From NCBI GenBank assembly GCA_964587125.1, contig CAZPKC010000001.1:163945-227944 (forward strand): a DNA stretch of 64,000 bases. Direction: 5' to 3'. A program made the position numbers and the translations under genes. This stretch comes from an uncultured Rhodospirillaceae bacterium. GTDB lineage: Bacteria; Pseudomonadota; Alphaproteobacteria; UBA9219. Position 1 is the first letter of the stretch. Every line of letters begins with the position of its first letter. This document shows, one piece after another, positions 46,873-53,021 of the stretch. The notes under the pieces are model-generated. The model worked only from the letters and a program-made list of their open reading frames with translations, did no database searches and was not told the DNA's origin.

Positions 46873-47226
46873 ATGACCGAAAACGAAAACCCTCTGGCTG
46901 ACGAAGCCGTAGACACGCTGCATGGCCTGATGAAGGACAGCGAAAGCGATTCGGACAAGATCAGGGCCGCGAAAATCCTTCTCGACCGCGCTGCGCCGAA
47001 AGAAGACGATGAAGCAAAAAAACACGAAGCTGAAGAACGTGACGCTGCGTTTACAGAGGCGTATGGACTCCTTACGGAACTTGCCCGCTACAAATATGCA
47101 TTCCATCGCCTCCAGAATGCGCTGGCTGAAGCAAGCAAGGCCCCAGCAGCTGACCCCGCCCGGCAATTGGCGGATTTGGCTGATTTTGGCTGGGCGCGGC
47201 TGGGGGAAGACGAGAACGGGGGCTGA
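46873..47226 (+). CDS. putative small terminase-like protein
   Basis: helical DKIRAAKILLDRA segment; overlaps the 5' end of the large terminase. Confidence 0.55.
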   Translation: MTENENPLADEAVDTLHGLMKDSESDSDKIRAAKILLDRAAPKEDDEAKKHEAEERDAAFTEAYGLLTELARYKYAFHRLQNALAEASKAPAADPARQLADLADFGWARLGEDENGG

Positions 47227-47557
47227 GGATATTGCCCATTACGTTCTCTGGAACCCGGGCGTGCGCGTCGGCGTGATAGCCCCTACTTATGCCGACGCGC
47301 GCGATACCTGCGTCGAGGGCGAAAGCGGCCTTTTGGAAACGATTCCTCCCGCCTGCATCGAGAAATGGAACCGCTCGATGGGCGAGATGATGCTCAAAAA
47401 CGGAAGCCGCATCAAATTATTCTCCGCCGACCAGCCAGAGCGGCTGCGCGGCCCGCAGCATCACCGCGTGTGGTGCGACGAAATGGGAGCTTGGGGAAAG
47501 CGCGAAGCCTTCGATCAGCTCTTTTTCGGATTGCGCTTGGGTAAACCCGTTACATAA
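47009..47557 (+). pseudogene. large terminase, ATPase N-terminal half only (GTA g2-like), truncated
   Basis: W...ARPQQLTPPGNWRIWLILAGRGWGKTRTGAE (Walker A), ERLRGPQ, WCDE (Walker B); breaks after GLRLG; nuclease domain absent. Confidence 0.9.
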
Positions 47558-47802
47558 ACCCTGATACCGGTCAATCAGTAGTGATCGATAATTCGACAGG
47601 CTCTGTTATCCATGTAGGCGGTCAAGATTTTCAGTATGGAATAGAAAGCGGAGACCTGCCTAACGCACAAATCAGACCGGGAACTTTCAGCTCAGGGAGC
47701 GCGGGTGGTGGTGGAGGTGGAGGCGGTGGAGGCGGTGGAGGTGGAATGTTTGGCCATATATTTCCAAAAATTCCCGGTGATTCAGAACAAGAATTAGAAT
47801 AG
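47545..47802 (+). pseudogene. C-terminal toxin fragment (colicin E5-like RNase) with a poly-Gly tail
   Basis: hand translation TRYINPDTGQSVVIDNSTGSVIHVGGQDFQYG; 14 Gly codons at 47704-47745; 5' part missing. Confidence 0.6.
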
Positions 47803-47828
47803 GATATTGCAAAACACGGGTGATAGAA

Positions 47829-48164
47829 ATGCAAGAACCAGCATGGATTTCAATACTACCGCCGGACTTGACAAAAATGGCCTATCGAGCGGGAGCAGAA
47901 TTGGCGTGGCCTCGCGATCAGGCTTTGCGTGTTTTAGATTTGTTGAACAAGAAAAAATATATCATCGTCGGCGTGGAAACTTGGATTCCTACCAAACCGG
48001 GACCAACACCGCTCATTAATGATTGGACTCCTGAGCGCGCAAAAAAATCCGATTCATTTCCCCAAACTGCACAAAATTTTGTTTCCGCCTTCAAGCGCGA
48101 TCCGGCTGAAAATGGGGGGGTAGCTACCATTTTTTGTATTTCTGCACTACGTCCTAAGAATTAG
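47829..48164 (+). CDS. immunity protein, Imm40-like
   Basis: AELAWPRDQALRVLDLL...IIVGVETW pattern; lies directly downstream of the toxin fragment. Confidence 0.6.
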   Translation: MQEPAWISILPPDLTKMAYRAGAELAWPRDQALRVLDLLNKKKYIIVGVETWIPTKPGPTPLINDWTPERAKKSDSFPQTAQNFVSAFKRDPAENGGVATIFCISALRPKN

Positions 48165-48185
48165 ACATACAGCACGGGTCTGCGC

Positions 48186-49082
48186 GTGATCGCGGGCATA
48201 GATCATTGGCTGTGCCCGATGTACCGCGACAGGCCGGAACTCGACTTCGATCCCGATGCGATAAGCGCGCTCACCGACAAGCGGCAAGCCCAATGGAGCA
48301 AAGTCCAAAACGCCAACTTCCTGACGCGCAACGAAAAGCGCGAGGCGGCGGGCTATGGCCCCGTGCCGGGCGGCGACGAGGCAGACGATTATGACGACGG
48401 GACGAAACGCGCGGCTCGGCCAAAATTTAACCCCTATCACGACGACCTAGGCCGCTTCACTTTCGGGCCAGGCGAAGATGACGATGGGGATGACGATACT
48501 TCATCGGATCAACCTCAAAGCTCGCCAAGCGGTTCAGACAGCGGCCCCGGAATTTTCGGCTTGCCGGAAAATATAGAGCATCCGGCAACCGCAACTCCGG
48601 CAAACGCGGGGCCAGCCGATAATAATTCGTTTGATGCCGATAAGGCGGTTGATACGCTAAATCAAAATGTCGACGAGCTTAAAAGACAGCAGATTGAAGA
48701 TGGACAACCTAATTTGTATGGAGAGCACGCCTGTGCACAATATGTCAGGGGCGCTTTAAACGATGGCGGTGGACTCAATGTCGGGACACCGGCAAACGGG
48801 CTAGGAAACGCTGCAGACTATGGTCCTCCACTCGAAAATGCCGGGTTTCAACCTGTCGCCAACGGCAACGCATATCCGCCGGAAGATTATACGCCTCAAG
48901 CCGGAGATGTGGCAGTTATTCAACCCACAAACGAAAACGCGAGTGGTCATATGGAGATGTATAACGGCTCGCAATGGGTTTCGGATTTTAGACAGGATGG
49001 GTTTTGGCCGGGGCCTCATTATAGGAATGAAACGCCTCATTTTGTCATTTACCGCTATCCAAACTCCTCGATAAACATATAA
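48186..49082 (+). CDS. portal C-terminal fragment fused in frame to a Cys/His (CHAP/Tae-like) amidase domain
   Basis: DHWLCPMY...DPDAISAL...W.KVQNANFLTRNEKREAAGYGPVPGGD (portal tail); KFNPYHDDLGRFT; acidic linker; CAQYVRGAL...PQAGDVAVI...SGHMEMYNGSQWVSDFRQ. Confidence 0.8.
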   Translation: MIAGIDHWLCPMYRDRPELDFDPDAISALTDKRQAQWSKVQNANFLTRNEKREAAGYGPVPGGDEADDYDDGTKRAARPKFNPYHDDLGRFTFGPGEDDDGDDDTSSDQPQSSPSGSDSGPGIFGLPENIEHPATATPANAGPADNNSFDADKAVDTLNQNVDELKRQQIEDGQPNLYGEHACAQYVRGALNDGGGLNVGTPANGLGNAADYGPPLENAGFQPVANGNAYPPEDYTPQAGDVAVIQPTNENASGHMEMYNGSQWVSDFRQDGFWPGPHYRNETPHFVIYRYPNSSINI

Positions 49083-49087
49083 AAACC

Positions 49088-49717
49088 CTATTGCTCCGAA
49101 GACAGGGAAATTGTTTCAGGACAGCAAATGCTATCGATACGCCAAGCTCCACGTTCAACCCTGAGCCGAACAGAAAGACGCACCGCAAAATAAGAACGCC
49201 CACCATTAGGACGAAAAAGGCGACTTGCGACAATCAAAGCACGATCCCCATCCATCTCGATAAGTTGTGCCGTTGCGTTAAGCCACTCGTCAAATGCGTC
49301 CTGTGAACAAGTTATAACGTTTGTACCGGAGGGACAATATTGAGGCTTTGGCTCTGGCTCCTGATCTGATGTATAGGTTGTCGTCCAGTGATAAAATTCT
49401 GATGTCAACATTTTACGCATAATTATATCTTGATTACGCGCGCGAACATGTTCACTACGCGCCTCTGCTGAAAACTTTCGAGGGAATGAGAAAAAAACGA
49501 TGTTGTTTGCCTCATTCCATTTGTAGAAACCTGCGACAAAAGCTTCCAGATGTTCGGAACTGCGGTCGCAGGTGGCGGCGTCTTTGCACTCGACAAGCGC
49601 GGGAGGTTGTATTTTTTCCGCTTTTTCGACCGAGACTTTTGCCGACGCTCCGGATGAAACGGCGAGCAACGCCGCCAGAAACGTGAGGATAGAAATCAGG
49701 CGTTTGCGCAGTTTCAT
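49088..49717 (-). CDS. secreted DUF3828/YbjP-like protein, candidate amidase immunity protein
   Basis: Sec signal peptide; FVAGFYKW, CSQD..W and V.L..ERGAWRIDSI. Confidence 0.65.
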   Translation of the reverse strand: MKLRKRLISILTFLAALLAVSSGASAKVSVEKAEKIQPPALVECKDAATCDRSSEHLEAFVAGFYKWNEANNIVFFSFPRKFSAEARSEHVRARNQDIIMRKMLTSEFYHWTTTYTSDQEPEPKPQYCPSGTNVITCSQDAFDEWLNATAQLIEMDGDRALIVASRLFRPNGGRSYFAVRLSVRLRVERGAWRIDSICCPETISLSSEQ

Positions 49718-50337
49718 TTTTGCAAATCCTCGAAGCGAAGAGCCTTTAAACTATCAAGTCCTGACCAACTTGCAATAATTTCCTGACGCGCAACGAAAAG
49801 CGCGAAGCTGTGGGCTACGGCCCCGTTCCGGGCGGCGACGAAGGGGACGGCGGCATAAACAACCTGCTTCACTCCGATCAGCCGCCGAAGGATTTTGAGG
49901 GAGGCTTTGTGATGCTCGAGGCTCTCGTGGCTCGCGCAGGCTTTTGAAAGGACGACGGGGCGGAGGCCTGCTTCGAACAAATCCACGGCGGTTTTAAGGA
50001 CGCAGCAATCTGTGTCGATGCCGCAAAGGAAAACTTCCGAAATTTTGCGCTTTTTCAAAAGGCGGAGAAATTTTTCATCGACGCAGGTGTAGACGCGCTT
50101 TTCGAAAATTTCGGCGCGGGCGCAGGGTTTGAAGGCAAGTTCCGTGTCTTTCGTTCCTATGCCGAATCTTTTCCATTTCAGCAGTTTGCGGAAAGGCGAA
50201 CGCGGCGCGTTGACGACGCGGAAGATGAACACGTTGCGAAAATAGGATTGCAGCGCCTCGACGATCGCCGGAATTTTTTTCGTGCGCTTGTTGATGAATC
50301 CTTTTTGCACATCGATGATAAGCAGGCATGAGATCAT
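49714..50337 (-). CDS. isochorismatase/cysteine hydrolase family protein with read-through C-terminal extension
   Basis: LLIIDVQKGF, FEKRVY and CGIDTDCCVLKTA; tail reads antisense through the portal repeat. Confidence 0.85.
   Translation of the reverse strand: MISCLLIIDVQKGFINKRTKKIPAIVEALQSYFRNVFIFRVVNAPRSPFRKLLKWKRFGIGTKDTELAFKPCARAEIFEKRVYTCVDEKFLRLLKKRKISEVFLCGIDTDCCVLKTAVDLFEAGLRPVVLSKACASHESLEHHKASLKILRRLIGVKQVVYAAVPFVAARNGAVAHSFALFVARQEIIASWSGLDSLKALRFEDLQK
49777..49841 (+). repeat. second portal-tail copy (59/65 nt identical to 48315-48379)
   Basis: encodes NFLTRNEKREAVGYGPVPGGDE; 6 mismatches, 5 of them synonymous. Confidence 0.9.
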
Positions 50338-50420: not shown

Positions 50421-51002
50421 ATGGACGTTAAACACATGTCCCTTCCGCTGAGGGTCAAGACTCTCGGCGGCGACGGGATTTTTACGGGTTACGCCTCCGT
50501 TTTCGGCGAGCTCGATCAGCAAAACGAAATCGTGGCTGCGGGCGCGTTCTCACGCACGCTGTCGAAGTGGCGGCGGCAAAATCGCACGCCCGCGCTTTTG
50601 TGGATGCACGATCCGACGCAACCCATCGGCATCTGGCAAAGCGTCCGCGAAGACGCGAGCGGCCTTCTGGTCGAAGGACGCCTCGCGCTTCGCACGCAAA
50701 AAGGCGGCGAGGCTTACGAACTTCTCAAACTCGGCGCGTTGACCGGCCTTTCAATCGGCTATCGCGTCGTCTCTAGCCAGATCGACGCCAAACGCAAGGC
50801 CAGAATCCTGACTGACGTCGATTTGTTCGAAATTTCGCTGGTGACTTTTCCGGCGAACGAAGCGGCGCGCGTCAGCGACGTGAAAAGAAGGGACCGGCAT
50901 TCGGAATCCGGCGTTCGGGGAAAAGAATGCATCGATCCCTCCCTTTTGGCCCAAGCCGCCGAAAGACTCCGCCAAGCCGCGCGAACTTTGACGGACAGAT
51001 AA
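50421..51002 (+). CDS. HK97-type prohead protease (GTA g4-like)
   Basis: FTGYASVF, LLWMHDP..PIGIW, GLSIGY and EISLVTFPANE. Confidence 0.95.
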   Translation: MDVKHMSLPLRVKTLGGDGIFTGYASVFGELDQQNEIVAAGAFSRTLSKWRRQNRTPALLWMHDPTQPIGIWQSVREDASGLLVEGRLALRTQKGGEAYELLKLGALTGLSIGYRVVSSQIDAKRKARILTDVDLFEISLVTFPANEAARVSDVKRRDRHSESGVRGKECIDPSLLAQAAERLRQAARTLTDR

Positions 51003-51028: not shown

Positions 51029-51607
51029 ATGATTGATATGAGCGAAGTACGCTCGGCCACCGATACTCTGGCGCGAGCTTTTGAAGAATATAAAAGCGTC
51101 AACGACCAGCGTTTGCACGAAATCGAGCAACGCGGATCGGCCGACGTTCTGCACGACGAACATCTGGGCCGCATGGACAAGTCCATCAACCGGCTGCAGG
51201 ACGACATCACGAGCCTGAAAACCTCGATGCTGCGTCCGGGCAAGTCGGGCGCGTCTTTGGCTCCGGCAGACAGCGCGCACAAGCAGGCGTTTTTGAAATA
51301 CATCGCCAAAGGATACGACGCGGGGCTGGCCTCGTTCGAAAGCAAATCTTTGGAAGTCATCAACAACGCCGAAGGCGGATACATGATTCCGCCGGAACTT
51401 TCCGACCGCATCGTCACGCGCCAATACGACACCACGCCGATGCGCCAGATTTCGACGGTCATGAGCATCTCGACCGAAGCGGTCGAAATGCTGCGCGATA
51501 CGAACGAACCCGTCGCGTTGTGGATTTCGGAACTGGGCGTTCCGGCTCCGACATCCGAAGGATTGTTGGAACGGCGCAAACTTTGTTCGGCGGAACGACG
51601 CCTGTGA
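51029..51607 (+). pseudogene. HK97 major capsid protein, N-terminal part (GTA g5-like), truncated near 51540
   Basis: AFEEYK..ND.RL.EIE.RG.AD, GGYMIPPE and PMRQISTV; similarity stops after LWISE. Confidence 0.88.
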
Positions 51608-51810
51608 ACGGATTCGCCGTATACAATCCCGACTCCACGAACGATCTGTGGATCAGCGACAGCACGACGGCCGCCGTCAATGGTGTCGGTTCCATTCGTA
51701 TTGTAGCCAACGGCGGAGGTTTCGAGACGCCCCCGGGATATAAGCCGCTTGGAGCCGTGTCGATCGTATCGGCAACGACCGGCGCCAAAATCACCGCACG
51801 CCGGTGGTGA
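51545..51810 (+). pseudogene. 5'-truncated phage structural protein (possible head decoration/fibre partner)
   Basis: GTAQTLFGG..P.NGF.V.NP...ETP.GYKP.G.VSI...TTG.KITARRW; true start lost at the junction. Confidence 0.55.
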
Positions 51811-51815
51811 GCGTC

Positions 51816-53021
51816 ATGTGTCCGCTTATCTTTCCGCCCGACACGTACGCCAGCGGAGGTTTCGACCTGCGCACGTACAAAAGAGGCGTCGGACCCGTTT
51901 CCGGCGTGGTCAAAACTTATAATTTTCTTTCCGGAACATTGCCGAGCGACTTGACCTTCTCCCGCGCGTCGAGTGCGTGGTATTTCAACTCGTCGGGCGT
52001 TTTGACGCAAGCGTCGAGCAATGCGCCGCGTTTCGATTACGGGTATTATGGAAGCTCGTCTTTGCAGGGACTGTTGGCCGAGGGGCAAAGCACTAATCTG
52101 GCTCTCCAAAGCAACGCTTTTACAACCTCTCCGTGGACAAAATCGGCGGCCGTTACGGCAGGGGCCGCCACTTCTCCCGATGGAACGACGGACGCTTTTT
52201 CGTTTCTGGCCTCGGCGGCATATCAATATGCGCGTCAATCCATAACCCTCTCGGGAAGCACGACTTACACGTTATCCTGTTGGCTGCGCGTTTCCTCGGG
52301 CACTTATACGAATTTAGAATTGTACGGGTACGACGGAACCAGCCAATACGGGGTAACGCCGACGATCACAACGACGTGGACGCGCTATACAAAAACCTTC
52401 ACGACGGTGGCTTCGCCGTCAGCCGGAACTATTTATTTACAGGATAATAATACGAGCGGATGGCAAACCGTCTATATCTATGGAATGCAACTCGAACAAG
52501 GTTCTTTGGCTACTTCCTATATCCCGACGACAACGGTAACAGTCACCCGCGCCGCCGACAGCCTTTATAACTCTTCGCTTCCTTGGTTCAACGCGACGAC
52601 GGGGACTTTTGTCGCGCGCGGCATTCTTGAAGGGGCAAATACTTCTCATGCGGCCTATCTCTCGTCGTTCAGCGACGGAACGGCGAATAACAATATCGCG
52701 TTGTTCGCAAACACAAGCGGAAAGGCGCAAGGCGGCGATACGGTTTCCGGAACGGCCTATACGTCTGCCGCGACTGCCGGAAGCCCTGTCGTTGGAACGG
52801 CGTTTAAGCAAGCCCTTAAATACGCCTCCGGCAGCAATGTCGCCGATTTTGGGAGCACGATAGACGGCGCGGGAACTTTCGGCGCAGCCGCCATACCTTC
52901 GGGCATAAGCCGTCTCGATCTCGGCAATAATGTAAGCGGAACGGCGGCTTTCAACGGCTGGCTGCAATCGTTCTCTTACTACAACACGGCTTTAACCAAC
53001 GCGCAAATACAGGGGCTATAA
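51816..53021 (+). CDS. phage head-spike/fibre-like protein
   Basis: LTFSRASSAWYFNSSG, PRFDY, GLL.EG..TNL..S..F...W, QLEQGS.ATSYIPT, VTRAAD; Ser/Thr/Gly-rich. Confidence 0.75.
   Translation: MCPLIFPPDTYASGGFDLRTYKRGVGPVSGVVKTYNFLSGTLPSDLTFSRASSAWYFNSSGVLTQASSNAPRFDYGYYGSSSLQGLLAEGQSTNLALQSNAFTTSPWTKSAAVTAGAATSPDGTTDAFSFLASAAYQYARQSITLSGSTTYTLSCWLRVSSGTYTNLELYGYDGTSQYGVTPTITTTWTRYTKTFTTVASPSAGTIYLQDNNTSGWQTVYIYGMQLEQGSLATSYIPTTTVTVTRAADSLYNSSLPWFNATTGTFVARGILEGANTSHAAYLSSFSDGTANNNIALFANTSGKAQGGDTVSGTAYTSAATAGSPVVGTAFKQALKYASGSNVADFGSTIDGAGTFGAAAIPSGISRLDLGNNVSGTAAFNGWLQSFSYYNTALTNAQIQGL

What the first reader, a model, noticed from the sequence alone, without database searches (positions are those of the whole stretch)
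48186..49082. Portal tail fused in frame to a Cys/His peptidoglycan amidase via an NPYHD..GRFT motif and acidic linker
Seen: a single open frame joins about 65 aa of GTA-g3-like portal tail, KFNPYHDDLGRFT, a D/S/G/P-rich linker and a domain with putative catalytic Cys (CAQYV) and His (SGHMEM). It has no signal peptide and no clear RBS, which fits a silent orphan cassette. Known: such CHAP/NlpC-P60-like domains act as Tae-type secreted amidase effectors. Inference: it is either a virion-delivered periplasmic toxin or a portal-tethered cell-wall hydrolase aiding DNA entry. The NPYHD motif may be a packaging or cleavage signal.
Basis: partly seen in the sequence, partly recalled or inferred. Interest (0 to 1): 0.75.

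Follow-up and report, generated by a model that had tools for sequence, protein, structure and literature searches.

The report
Orphan portal-tail amidase toxin cassette
This reading frame is a leftover swap-in cassette from a phage-like particle gene cluster: the last 65 residues of the portal protein fused to a cell-wall-cutting toxin of the Tae3 family, with its protective immunity gene next door, which suggests that such particles can carry interchangeable toxins on their portal.

Summary
ORF 48186-49082 (+) joins the last ~65 aa of an HK97/RcGTA-type portal, the motif KFNPYHDDLGRFT, a disordered acidic linker, and a confidently folded papain-like domain. That domain belongs to the Tae3 family of type VI amidase effectors (profile E 1.4e-32, TM 0.83), with C183, H255 and S266 at Tae3's catalytic positions.

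A convergent gene (49088-49717) encodes a secreted partner found after almost every Tae3 copy examined, and its only PDB match is the immunity protein Tai3. A 73-nt portal-tail repeat brackets the toxin-immunity unit. The surrounding GTA-like head module is decayed, with no portal body, half a capsid gene and no tail genes.

Elsewhere, about 10% of related full-length portals carry the same tail, motif and linker followed by different C-terminal toxins. These include a pesticin-like lysozyme and a CdiA-type RNase, followed by small immunity-like genes and arrays of 5'-truncated portal-tail cassettes. The motif also marks domain junctions in other portal families and in MuF proteins.

Best reading: an orphan, now undeliverable cassette of a portal-borne polymorphic toxin system. 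Delivery by the particle is inferred. Fusions of effectors to portal and MuF are known, so this is a new variant of a known kind.

The parts
48183..48380 (+). C-terminal ~65 residues of an HK97/RcGTA-g3-type portal (crown end and tail). This is the homology arm of the cassette. The portal body, about 330 aa, is absent.
   Evidence: tblastn to P0007 residues 332-421, 71% identity, E 2e-38. Pfam PF04860 profile 272-320/321. PHROG 12. No other portal segment in the 64-kb window apart from 49777-49911.
48423..48461 (+). Pre-toxin junction motif KFNPYHDDLGRFT (residues 80-92).
   Evidence: Conserved in P0003, P0006, P0026, L089 and L010. It aligns with the longer variant K[YF][SN]PDQPRVPAG...GGQW. 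A variant is present in all 10 extended portals of the genome scan. It precedes 32 of 160 Tae3-like domains.
48462..48632 (+). Acidic, Ser/Gly/Pro-rich linker predicted to be disordered.
   Evidence: pLDDT below 50 for residues 65-143. Composition read directly from the sequence.
48633..49082 (+). Tae3-family papain-like peptidoglycan amidase domain. C183 = nt 48732-48734, H255 = nt 48948-48950, S266-D267 = nt 48981-48986. Ends at stop TAA 49080-49082.
   Evidence: Profile hit to 4HZ9_A (Tae3), E 1.4e-32, with C183 and H255 on Tae3 C23 and H81 (dyad per PMC11796386). Foldseek TM 0.83. pLDDT about 90. Invariant C, H, S, D. Weak CHAP hit. PHROG endolysin, E 1.5e-9.
49088..49717 (-). Convergent gene for a secreted (signal peptide MKLRKRLISILTFLAALLAVSSGASA) Tai3-like candidate immunity protein, 209 aa.
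   Evidence: Homologues lie immediately after the Tae3 domain on the opposite strand in L001-3, L006 (twice), L007, L004 and L283. A convergent gene of undetermined family also follows P0004. A profile of 9 homologues has a single PDB hit, 4HZ9_B (Tai3), E 0.054, aligned from the QD motif (window SQDAFDEWLN) to the C-terminus. There is no Pfam hit.
48315..48387 (+). Direct repeat, copy 1 (encodes NFLTRNEKREAAGYGPVPGGDEAD).
   Evidence: 73-nt repeat, 88% identity with 49777-49849, spacing 1462 nt.
49777..49911 (+). Second, displaced portal-tail fragment. It contains direct repeat copy 2 (49777-49849) and continues as ...GDGGINNLLHSDQPPKDFEGGFV, a degenerate motif.
   Evidence: tblastn to P0007 residues 376-421, E 1e-8. 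Repeat. Translation.
47820..48164 (+). Imm40-like orphan immunity gene, 114 aa. Same frame as the finding's ORF, separated from it by one TAG (48162-48164).
   Evidence: Precomputed Pfam PF15569 Imm40, weak. 43% identical homologue in the portal-protease island of L004/L012, E 2e-27. My own hmmscan gave no hit at E <= 0.1.
47545..47802 (+). Remnant of the last ~30 residues of a colicin-E5-type tRNase toxin domain (TRYINPDTGQSVVIDNSTGSVIHVGG...), followed by a poly-Gly run.
   Evidence: P0184 77% identity, E 1e-9. P0185 74% identity and carries PF12106 Colicin_E5, E 1.7e-9. The window fragment itself has no Pfam hit.
47009..47557 (+). N-terminal fragment of the large terminase.
   Evidence: Pfam Terminase_6N, E 1e-14. 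72-84% identical to the N-terminal part of sequences upstream of extended portals in L010, L011, L012 and L015. The ORF stops after 182 aa.
50421..51002 (+). Intact HK97-type prohead serine protease (S78).
   Evidence: Pfam PF04586, E 7.6e-34. 85% identity over the full length to the L004 protease.
51029..51583 (+). N-terminal half of the major capsid protein. The gene is truncated.
   Evidence: tblastn covers residues 1-185 of the 407-aa L004 capsid, 71% identity. Pfam Phage_capsid positions 1-63 only.
49714..50337 (-). Isochorismatase-family gene inserted between the displaced portal tail and the protease. Its last ~40 codons are antisense to the second portal-tail fragment.
   Evidence: Pfam PF00857, E 6e-24, on residues 3-151 of 207. 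Overlap seen from coordinates and translations.

Best explanation
The ORF is an orphan, displaced cassette of a portal-borne polymorphic toxin system. It sits in a decayed RcGTA-like head gene module.

In intact relatives the portal gene ends in a conserved tail. This is followed by a short junction motif (KFNP[YN]HD..GRF, or K[YF][SN]PDQPRVPAG..GGQW), a disordered linker and an exchangeable C-terminal toxin domain. Immunity genes and further 5'-truncated 'portal-tail + toxin' cassettes follow.

The window's cassette carries a Tae3-family peptidoglycan amidase with catalytic C183, H255 and S266. Its partner is a convergent gene for a secreted Tai3-like immunity protein.

Inferred mechanism in intact elements. 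The twelve portal C-termini point into the capsid, so the toxin is packaged in the head, either tethered or cut off near the motif. It leaves through the portal and tail channel with the DNA into the recipient's periplasm, where it cuts cell-wall cross-links unless the recipient makes the immunity protein.

In this genome the portal body, half the capsid gene and all tail genes are gone. The toxin fragment also lacks start signals and a signal peptide. It is therefore probably silent and cannot be delivered. The immunity gene may still protect against relatives' particles.
For: SHOWN
1. Domain identity: Tae3 profile E 1.4e-32, TM 0.83, catalytic residues aligned and invariant.
2. Conserved partner. 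A homologous convergent gene lies right after the Tae3 domain at every complete Tae3 site examined. It has a signal peptide. Its only PDB match is Tai3, aligned at the QD motif (Tai3 features per bioRxiv 10.1101/2025.03.19.644130).
3. Same architecture on full-length portals. Ten of 80 species-level genome loci have portals with 180-340 aa extensions, and all ten show the motif directly after the tail. IMG/VR adds L089, L090, L093, L132 and L165. P0004 and P0005 join portal body, motif and Tae3 in one frame.
4. The C-terminal domains are polymorphic: Tae3, Pesticin PF16754 (E 1.8e-22), CdiA-CT RNase A PF18431 (E 6.6e-12), a weak DUF4258 hit, and others.
5. Orphan arrays and scars: the 73-nt repeat in the window, three cassettes in L007, rearranged copies in L006, three portal copies in L165.
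6. A second toxin remnant with its immunity gene lies directly upstream: colicin-E5-like plus Imm40-like.
7. The same toxin domain rides other carriers, RHS and MuF. The 82%-identical domain in L006 sits behind a different N-terminal module.
8. The cassette has 45-51% GC against 56-60% in the flanks.
9. Local decay.

INFERRED
Packaging in the head, cleavage at the motif, ejection into the recipient's periplasm, and protection by the immunity protein.
Against: - Nothing here shows that any portal-fused domain leaves the capsid or kills cells.
- The immunity assignment rests on conserved neighbourhood plus a marginal Tai3 hit (E 0.054). Pfam DUF3828 did not hit. The AlphaFold model was poor (pLDDT 49) and its fold search inconclusive.
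- The immunity gene is convergent rather than co-directional, which is unusual for polymorphic toxin loci.
- Several portal-borne domains are cell-wall enzymes. Published work reads such fusions as aids to entry (PMC5512222).
- Tae3-like domains also sit in the baseplate hub of T4-like Acinetobacter phages.
- Twelve copies of a ~25-kDa extension would crowd a small GTA head.
- All intact relatives are metagenome-assembled, so some arrays could be assembly artefacts.
Confidence: 0.7

Rival explanations
1. Entry lysin. The portal-linked amidase is a virion-associated cell-wall hydrolase. It is ejected first to open the peptidoglycan locally for DNA entry, and is not an inter-bacterial toxin.
For: A Tae3-like domain (36% identity, E 5e-8) forms part of the gp27 baseplate hub or central spike in T4-like Acinetobacter phages. 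At least three portal-borne domains are cell-wall enzymes or look like them: Tae3, Pesticin-like lysozyme, and another Cys/His domain in L007. Iyer et al. 2017 interpret lysozyme fusions to portal and other virion proteins this way.
Against: An entry enzyme has no need for the conserved secreted Tai3-like partner gene. Sister portals carry RNase-type toxins that do not act on the wall. Intact RcGTA-like relatives already encode a tail NlpC/P60 peptidase. Exchangeable cassettes and orphan arrays are hallmarks of toxin diversification.
Confidence: 0.15
2. Accidental debris. The in-frame junction of portal tail and amidase is a by-product of deletions in a dying GTA cluster and has no meaning as a unit.
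For: The local cluster is heavily decayed. No start signals are visible. The upstream breakpoint lies about 20 nt after the stop of another gene.
Against: The same order of tail, motif, linker and Tae3 recurs in one frame in independent metagenomes (P0003, P0004, P0005), and with other toxins on full-length portals. The domain has evolved under strong purifying selection, dN/dS about 0.05.
Confidence: 0.05
3. Still-active stand-alone toxin. The ORF is translated from GTG 48186 or ATG 48219, possibly coupled to the Imm40-like gene. It is released by lysis or an unknown route and acts as a bacteriocin-like amidase without any particle.
For: The ORF is intact, and so is the immunity gene. Short proteins made of motif, linker and Tae3 with little or no N-terminal carrier exist (P0135, P0145, P0163). 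The upstream gene ends 21 nt before the GTG, in the same frame.
Against: There is no signal peptide and no recognisable ribosome-binding site or promoter. No secretion system genes lie nearby: the flanks are housekeeping genes. A Tae3-type enzyme must reach the periplasm of a target cell.
Confidence: 0.1

Closest known systems
Tae3-Tai3 type VI secretion amidase effector-immunity pair (Ralstonia pickettii, PDB 4HZ9; Russell et al. 2012; Dong et al. 2013)
   Same: The toxin domain is a clear homologue, with the same Cys-His(-Ser) active site and fold. The partner is a secreted protein. Its only PDB match is Tai3, and it has a QD motif at the aligned position.
   Different: There is no T6SS context. 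The carrier is a phage or GTA portal tail, not a free cargo effector or a VgrG, PAAR or Rhs protein. The immunity gene is convergent, and its similarity to Tai3/DUF3828 is marginal (E 0.054, no Pfam hit).
MuF polymorphic toxins of temperate phages (Zhang et al. 2012, PMC3482391; Jamet et al. 2017, PMC5576092)
   Same: A head-internal structural protein serves as N-terminal carrier. The C-terminal toxin domain is exchangeable and immunity genes are adjacent. Delivery through the capsid and DNA-ejection route is proposed. The same Tae3-like domain is found on a MuF carrier (P0043), and the same junction motif occurs in MuF polyvalent proteins.
   Different: The carrier here is the portal itself, not MuF. 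Orphan cassettes carry a portal-tail homology arm. The context is an RcGTA-like cluster. The papers I could read do not describe portal-tail cassette arrays or this motif.
Portal- or MuF-fused injected effectors and polyvalent proteins of phages (Iyer et al. 2017, PMC5512222; Iyer et al. 2022, PMC9503650)
   Same: These papers record enzymatic domains (PBECR RNases, 2H, InPase, Nudix, ART, lysozyme) fused to portal domains and infer that they are packaged in the head and injected.
   Different: Those fusions are read as counter-defence or entry factors acting for the phage. No immunity genes or cassette arrays are reported for them. Here the extension behaves like a polymorphic toxin with immunity.
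Rhs / CdiA / MafB polymorphic toxin loci with orphan C-terminal cassettes
   Same: A conserved junction motif lies before a variable toxin tip, with the immunity gene adjacent. Downstream 'orphan' cassettes keep a short piece of the conserved region, and displaced 3' ends leave direct repeats.
   Different: The carrier and the presumed delivery machine differ. The junction motif is unlike VENN or PxxxxDPxGL. The immunity gene of the Tae3 cassette is on the opposite strand.
RcGTA (Rhodobacter capsulatus gene transfer agent) g3 portal and head-tail cluster
   Same: The intact relatives L004 and L006 show RcGTA-like gene content in an order resembling the RcGTA cluster. It includes Pfam families DUF2460, Phage_BR0599, NLPC_P60 and Rcc01698_C. 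From memory, these correspond to RcGTA g12 to g15. The window keeps fragments of terminase, portal, protease and capsid in that order.
   Different: As far as I know, no C-terminal toxin extension has been described on the canonical g3 portal. Most related portals in the scan end 13-22 aa after the NEKR helix. The window's cluster cannot build a particle.

Membership tests
Tae3 family (papain-like/CHAP-type peptidoglycan amidase effectors) | Significant sequence and fold similarity to Tae3 | tested here: met
   Profile versus 4HZ9_A, E 1.4e-32 over almost the whole chain. Foldseek E 1.7e-8, target-normalised TM 0.83, rmsd 2.8. The family has 2860 cluster representatives at E <= 1e-3.
Tae3 family (papain-like/CHAP-type peptidoglycan amidase effectors) | Catalytic Cys-His dyad (Tae3 C23/H81) with a Ser as third residue | tested here: met
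   C183 and H255 align to C23 and H81 (dyad per PMC11796386). S266 in WVSDF is invariant, and the Cys-His-Ser triad is described in PMC10318531.
Tae3 family (papain-like/CHAP-type peptidoglycan amidase effectors) | Adjacent cognate periplasmic immunity protein of the Tai3/DUF3828 type (signal peptide, QDx motif) | tested here: inconclusive
   The neighbour is conserved and has a signal peptide. Its only PDB hit is Tai3, at E 0.054, aligned from the QD motif. Pfam DUF3828 did not hit, and the structure model was too poor to compare.
Tae3 family (papain-like/CHAP-type peptidoglycan amidase effectors) | Export by a type VI secretion system (T6SS genomic context) | tested here: not met
   The neighbours are phage head genes and housekeeping genes, and no T6SS family was seen in the flanks scanned. 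The domain works like Tae3 but is not a T6SS effector here.
Tae3 family (papain-like/CHAP-type peptidoglycan amidase effectors) | Peptidoglycan amidase/endopeptidase activity and periplasmic toxicity | not testable with these tools
   Needs an enzyme assay and periplasmic expression with a C183A control.
HK97/RcGTA-g3 portal protein (Pfam PF04860) | Complete portal fold of about 400 aa | tested here: not met
   Only the last ~65 residues are present (profile 272-320/321; P0007 residues 332-421). No portal body anywhere in the window.
HK97/RcGTA-g3 portal protein (Pfam PF04860) | Homology of the retained segment to portal C-termini | tested here: met
   67-80% identity to many portals over this segment. 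tblastn E 2e-38. PHROG 12, E 4e-6.
Polymorphic toxin systems (sensu Zhang et al. 2012) | Conserved N-terminal carrier with variable C-terminal toxin domains in homologous proteins | tested here: met
   Ten of 80 genome loci, plus IMG/VR loci, have the same portal tail and motif followed by unrelated C-terminal domains.
Polymorphic toxin systems (sensu Zhang et al. 2012) | Cognate immunity gene immediately adjacent to the toxin tip | tested here: met
   A convergent partner follows every complete Tae3 tip examined. Small co-directional genes follow other tips, for example three paralogues in L011. Neutralisation itself was not tested.
Polymorphic toxin systems (sensu Zhang et al. 2012) | Orphan cassettes that keep a fragment of the conserved region, and displaced 3' ends | tested here: met
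   Window repeat 48315-48387 / 49777-49849. Arrays in L007, L006 and L165.
Polymorphic toxin systems (sensu Zhang et al. 2012) | Delivery of the toxin into a neighbouring cell | not testable with these tools
   Inferred only from the carrier's position in the virion.
MuF polymorphic toxins (Jamet et al. 2017) | N-terminal MuF (PF04233/PF06152-type) domain | tested here: not met
   No MuF hit in the ORF. A MuF carrier with the same toxin domain exists elsewhere (P0043).
RcGTA-like gene transfer agent cluster | Complete head-tail gene set in RcGTA order | tested here: not met
   The window keeps only the terminase N-fragment, portal tail, protease and capsid N-half. No adaptor or tail genes were found at E <= 1e-3. 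The relatives L004 and L006 do have the set.

The most novel reading that the evidence does not exclude
RcGTA-like particles and related phages use the portal C-terminus as a loading dock for exchangeable toxins. DNA transfer then comes bundled with a kin test: recipients without the matching immunity gene are damaged or killed. The [FY][NS]P.[QH][PD]R..G[RGQ][FW] motif would be the shared processing or ejection signal for head-packaged cargo. It is found after portals of at least two Pfam families and between domains of MuF polyvalent proteins.
Probability: 0.3. Interest if true: 0.8.

Novelty: new variant of a known kind. Interest (0 to 1): 0.6.

Why it matters
Gene transfer agents are usually discussed as cooperative DNA-sharing devices, and phage heads as DNA containers. 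Portals that carry swappable toxins with matching immunity genes would make these particles weapons as well as vectors. Who may receive DNA would then depend on which immunity genes the recipient holds.

The finding also shows a Tae3/Tai3-type pair working outside type VI secretion. In addition it supplies a short, easily searched junction motif that could flag head-packaged cargo proteins in phage genomes.

All of this can be tested with ordinary toxin-immunity assays and particle proteomics. For this particular window the consequence is modest. The cassette is a relic whose most likely remaining use is the immunity gene.

Tried and rejected
- Pfam and PDB sequence searches on the immunity candidate. 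No Pfam hit. A 4-sequence profile found nothing relevant in PDB. Only the 9-sequence profile gave the marginal Tai3 hit.
- AlphaFold of the immunity protein. The allowed alignment had 3 sequences and gave pLDDT 49. The fold search returned only weak NTF2-like matches and not Tai3, so it is inconclusive.
- Homology search with the immunity protein found only 3 proteins.
- Idea that the short N-terminal module of P0008- and P0010-type proteins mimics the C-terminus of the head-tail adaptor. hhalign probability was 1%, so it is not supported.
- Literature search for the motif as a string (GGQW, PRVPAG, DERGRF and others) gave no relevant paper. Searches for gene transfer agent plus polymorphic toxin or portal toxin found no description of portal-tail cassettes.
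- Prohead-protease cleavage at the motif. By eye, the capsid N-terminal region shows no similar sequence. No formal test was possible, so this stays a hypothesis.
- Comparing the portal-to-protease gap between extended and ordinary portals. The gap varies widely in both groups, so it does not discriminate.
- Pfam gave no name for most sister C-terminal domains (L010, L011, L012, P0026, L007 ORF1).
Full report
**1. What is at the coordinates**

ORF 48186-49082 (+) is open for 298 codons from a GTG. Public gene calls on the same contig start at ATG 48219 and give 287 aa (P0001). It has four parts.

- Residues 1-64 are the end of an HK97/RcGTA-type portal. Pfam PF04860 matches only profile positions 272-320 of 321, below threshold. 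PHROG 12 (portal) gives E 4e-6. tblastn gives 71% identity to residues 332-421 of the 446-aa portal P0007.
- Residues 80-92 are KFNPYHDDLGRFT.
- Residues ~93-149 are an acidic, Ser/Gly/Pro-rich stretch that AlphaFold leaves disordered.
- Residues ~150-295 fold confidently, with pLDDT about 90.

Homology to portal begins at nt 48183. That is about 20 nt after the TAG of the upstream gene, which happens to be in the same frame. I see no Shine-Dalgarno-like sequence before either start. The scan found no sigma-70-like promoter upstream on this strand, and the N-terminus does not look like a signal peptide.

**2. The C-terminal domain is a Tae3-family amidase**

- An alignment of 14 homologues has invariant C183, H255, S266 and D267.
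- A profile of the domain hits PDB 4HZ9 chain A at E 1.4e-32. This is the type VI amidase effector Tae3 of Ralstonia pickettii. C183 falls on Tae3 C23 and H255 on H81.
- C23 and H81 are the published catalytic dyad (PMC11796386). The third residue in Tae3 is a serine (PMC10318531), which matches the invariant S266.
- Foldseek returns the Tae3 chains first (TM 0.83), then Tae4 and phage CHAP lysins.
- The family is large. It has 2860 representatives at 50% clustering, and in the 150 best-scoring proteins listed the domain mostly sits at the C-terminal end of proteins of 122 to 3521 aa.
- Carriers include RHS repeats, LysM, a peptidoglycan-binding domain and a MuF domain. That pattern is typical of a polymorphic toxin tip.
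- Between the window and its 82%-identical relative in L006, pN is 0.10 and pS 0.72. The domain has therefore been under purifying selection.

**3.

Five bases after the stop, on the opposite strand, ORF 49088-49717 encodes 209 aa with a classic signal peptide.

- Homologues lie in the same convergent position after the Tae3 domain in very different settings. These are an integrative mobilisable element (L001-3, where the partner is tandemly duplicated within one ORF), an intact GTA-like cluster (L004), two sites in L006, L007, and the contig of P0005.
- A convergent gene also follows P0004, but no DNA was available to check its family.
- Pfam does not recognise the protein.
- A profile of nine homologues has exactly one hit among 177,635 PDB sequences. 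It is 4HZ9 chain B, the immunity protein Tai3, at E 0.054. The alignment starts at the QD motif (window SQDAFDEWLN) and runs to the C-terminus.
- Tai3 is a periplasmic DUF3828 protein whose conserved QDx motif is involved in inhibiting Tae3 (bioRxiv 10.1101/2025.03.19.644130; PMC6099711).
- The structure model of the partner was too poor to add anything.

I take this gene as the cognate immunity gene. Neighbourhood support is good. Homology support is weak.

**4. The local cluster is a ruin, and the cassette carries a recombination scar**

Proteins of the intact relative L004 were compared with the whole window. Only four matched: the portal tail, a full-length prohead protease (50421-50999, 85% identity), the first 185 of 407 capsid residues (51029-51583), and the Tae3 domain. 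No adaptor or tail genes were found.

The gene order is as follows.

- Terminase N-fragment, 47009-47557.
- The last ~30 residues of a colicin-E5-type tRNase domain followed by poly-Gly, 47545-47802.
- An Imm40-like gene, 47820-48164.
- The finding's ORF.
- The immunity gene.
- A second portal-tail fragment, 49777-49911.
- An isochorismatase-family gene on the minus strand.
- The protease, then half a capsid gene.

A 73-nt direct repeat of 88% identity (48315-48387 and 49777-49849) encodes NFLTRNEKRE.AGYGPVPGGDE. It brackets exactly the unit of motif, linker, toxin and immunity gene, with a spacing of 1462 nt. That unit has 45-51% GC against 56-60% around it. This is what insertion of a foreign cassette by recombination in the portal tail would leave. 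A later deletion then removed the portal body. The order of those events is inferred. The flanks of the whole ~6.5-kb remnant are ordinary chromosomal genes, and no T6SS genes appear among them.

**5. The same architecture on intact portals elsewhere**

*Genome scan.* A scan of one genome per species with the tail-plus-motif profile returned 80 loci.

- Most portals end 13-22 residues after the NEKR helix.
- Ten have extensions of 180-340 aa behind a full-length body.
- All ten show a variant of the motif directly after the tail, followed by a low-complexity linker and unrelated C-terminal domains.
- One extension is a pesticin-type lysozyme (PF16754, E 1.8e-22). One gives a weak DUF4258 hit. 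One carries an HHIIPQH motif that looks nuclease-like to me. Three carry TPR repeats. The rest are unnamed.

*IMG/VR and short contigs.* IMG/VR adds further cases, including one from the same metagenome as the window (L090) and a contig with three successive portal copies (L165). P0004 and P0005 join portal body, tail, motif, linker and Tae3 in one frame that stays open to the contig edge.

*Intact relatives.* L004 and L006 have RcGTA-like gene content in an order resembling the RcGTA cluster, including the Pfam family named after RcGTA g15. In L004 the 579-aa portal carries a different tip, followed by four small genes. An ORF of mine in that same island, lying between the called genes, is a 43%-identical homologue of the window's Imm40-like gene.

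*Downstream genes.* Extended portals are followed by small immunity-like families, for example three tandem paralogues in L011.

*Arrays.*
- L007 holds three portal-tail cassettes in 3.2 kb. Two carry Tae3 tips. One carries another Cys/His domain followed by a signal-peptide ORF.
- L006 holds two Tae3-immunity units interleaved with portal fragments, ahead of an otherwise intact cluster.
- In L006 the 82%-identical Tae3 sits behind a different short N-terminal module with the long motif variant. The exchange point therefore lies in the linker.

**6. The motif**

The short form is KFNP[YN]HD[DE]LGRF. The long form is K[YF][SN]P[DENS]QPR[VI]PAG...GG[QR]W. The two align as one motif with a six-residue insertion.

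- An exact-coding scan for PDQPRVPAG in IMG/VR gave 114 stretches and 128 in-frame hits. Typically 100-300 residues follow each hit.
- Of five long carriers tested, three have PF04860 and one has the Mu-type portal PF06074. One tip is a CdiA-CT RNase A domain (PF18431, E 6.6e-12).
- In large MuF-containing polyvalent proteins the motif recurs between domains.

It is therefore a general junction mark of head-associated cargo proteins. What it does is unknown. A proteolytic processing site is the most natural guess. From memory and unchecked here, phage Mu's portal is trimmed at its C-terminus during head maturation (Grimaud 1996). I could not test this.

**7. Mechanism**

*Shown.* The domain identities, the conserved partner, the variable tips on one carrier, the cassette arrays, the repeat scar, and the decay of the local cluster.

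*Inferred.* Portal C-termini face the capsid interior in HK97-type portals (established structural knowledge). The extension would therefore be packaged, released or pulled through the channel at ejection, and would reach the recipient's periplasm. There a Tae3-type enzyme cuts peptidoglycan unless the Tai3-like protein blocks it.

In this window the cassette cannot be delivered and is probably not translated. The immunity gene may still be useful. Confidence in this reading is 0.7.

**8. Rivals**

- An entry-lysin role (0.15) is suggested by Tae3-like domains in the baseplate hub of T4-like Acinetobacter phages and by the published reading of lysozyme fusions. It explains neither the immunity partner, nor the RNase tips, nor the cassette arrays.
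- Pure debris (0.05) is contradicted by the recurrence of the architecture and by purifying selection.
- A still-active stand-alone toxin (0.1) lacks any export route or start signals.

**9. Comparison with what is known, and novelty**

- MuF polymorphic toxins (PMC3482391, PMC5576092) and portal- or MuF-fused injected effectors (PMC5512222, PMC9503650) establish the general idea of head-packaged effectors.
- In the literature available to me I found no description of four things. These are portal-tail toxin-immunity cassettes with orphan arrays, their presence in RcGTA-like clusters, a Tae3/Tai3-like pair outside type VI secretion, and this junction motif. The searchable library omits many subscription-journal papers.
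- I file it as a new variant of a known kind.
- It works like a Tae3 toxin but is not a T6SS effector. It contains a portal fragment but is not a portal.

Interest: 0.6.

Noticed in passing
window 47545-47802: The terminase fragment is joined directly to the last ~30 residues of a colicin-E5-type tRNase toxin domain (TRYINPDTGQSVVIDNSTGSVIHVGG; 74-77% identical to P0184 and P0185, the latter carrying PF12106). A run of about 15 glycine codons follows (GGN repeats at 47699-47745).
   Followed up: partly
window 47820-48164: An Imm40-like orphan immunity gene sits right after the toxin remnant. Its 43%-identical homologue lies in the portal-protease island of the intact cluster L004/L012. It is in the same frame as the finding's ORF, with a single TAG (48162-48164) between them.
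   Followed up: partly
window 49714-50337 (-): The isochorismatase-family ORF matches its Pfam domain only over residues 3-151. Its last ~40 codons run antisense through the second portal-tail fragment, so its 3' end was probably created by the insertion.
   Followed up: no
window 51029-53021: Capsid homology stops at residue 185 of 407 (51583). The next ORF (51804-53021, 405 aa) has a CBM_4_9 carbohydrate-binding domain and looks like a fibre or spike-type protein unrelated to the L004 tail genes.
   Followed up: no
phage records H3-H25 (e.g. NC_014663.1 126200-126499): A Tae3-like domain (35-36% identity, E about 1e-7) lies within the gene annotated as gp27 baseplate hub or central spike in T4-like Acinetobacter phages. 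In these phages the same fold serves as a tail-tip wall enzyme.
   Followed up: no
L171 (IMGVR_UViG_3300020603_003181), matches at 1448, 3254, 4844, 6650: Four portal-tail + PDQPRVPAG + tip cassettes sit in a 7.8-kb contig with alternating spacing. This looks like a tandem array of two cassette types, or an assembly repeat.
   Followed up: no
L131 and L153 (IMG/VR): Portals of the same clade are fused in one frame to a long region ending in a motif that resembles MuF (CxCRCVLVY). In L131 a further large insert is present. These are portal-MuF fusions without the junction motif.
   Followed up: no
L001 8001-9867: A Tae3 cassette with the short N-terminal module (P0010) lies in an integrase plus MobA/MobL relaxase element rather than a phage cluster. 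Its convergent immunity ORF contains two tandem copies of the immunity domain.
   Followed up: partly
P0035 (2419 aa) and P0054 (1836 aa): Two very long proteins contain 7 and 4 separate Tae3-like stretches respectively.
   Followed up: no
L004 7331-8594: In the intact cluster, a Tae3 cassette with the short N-terminal module starts 1 nt after the stop of the head-tail adaptor gene. The module loosely resembles the adaptor's C-terminal helix, but hhalign does not support homology (probability 1%).
   Followed up: yes
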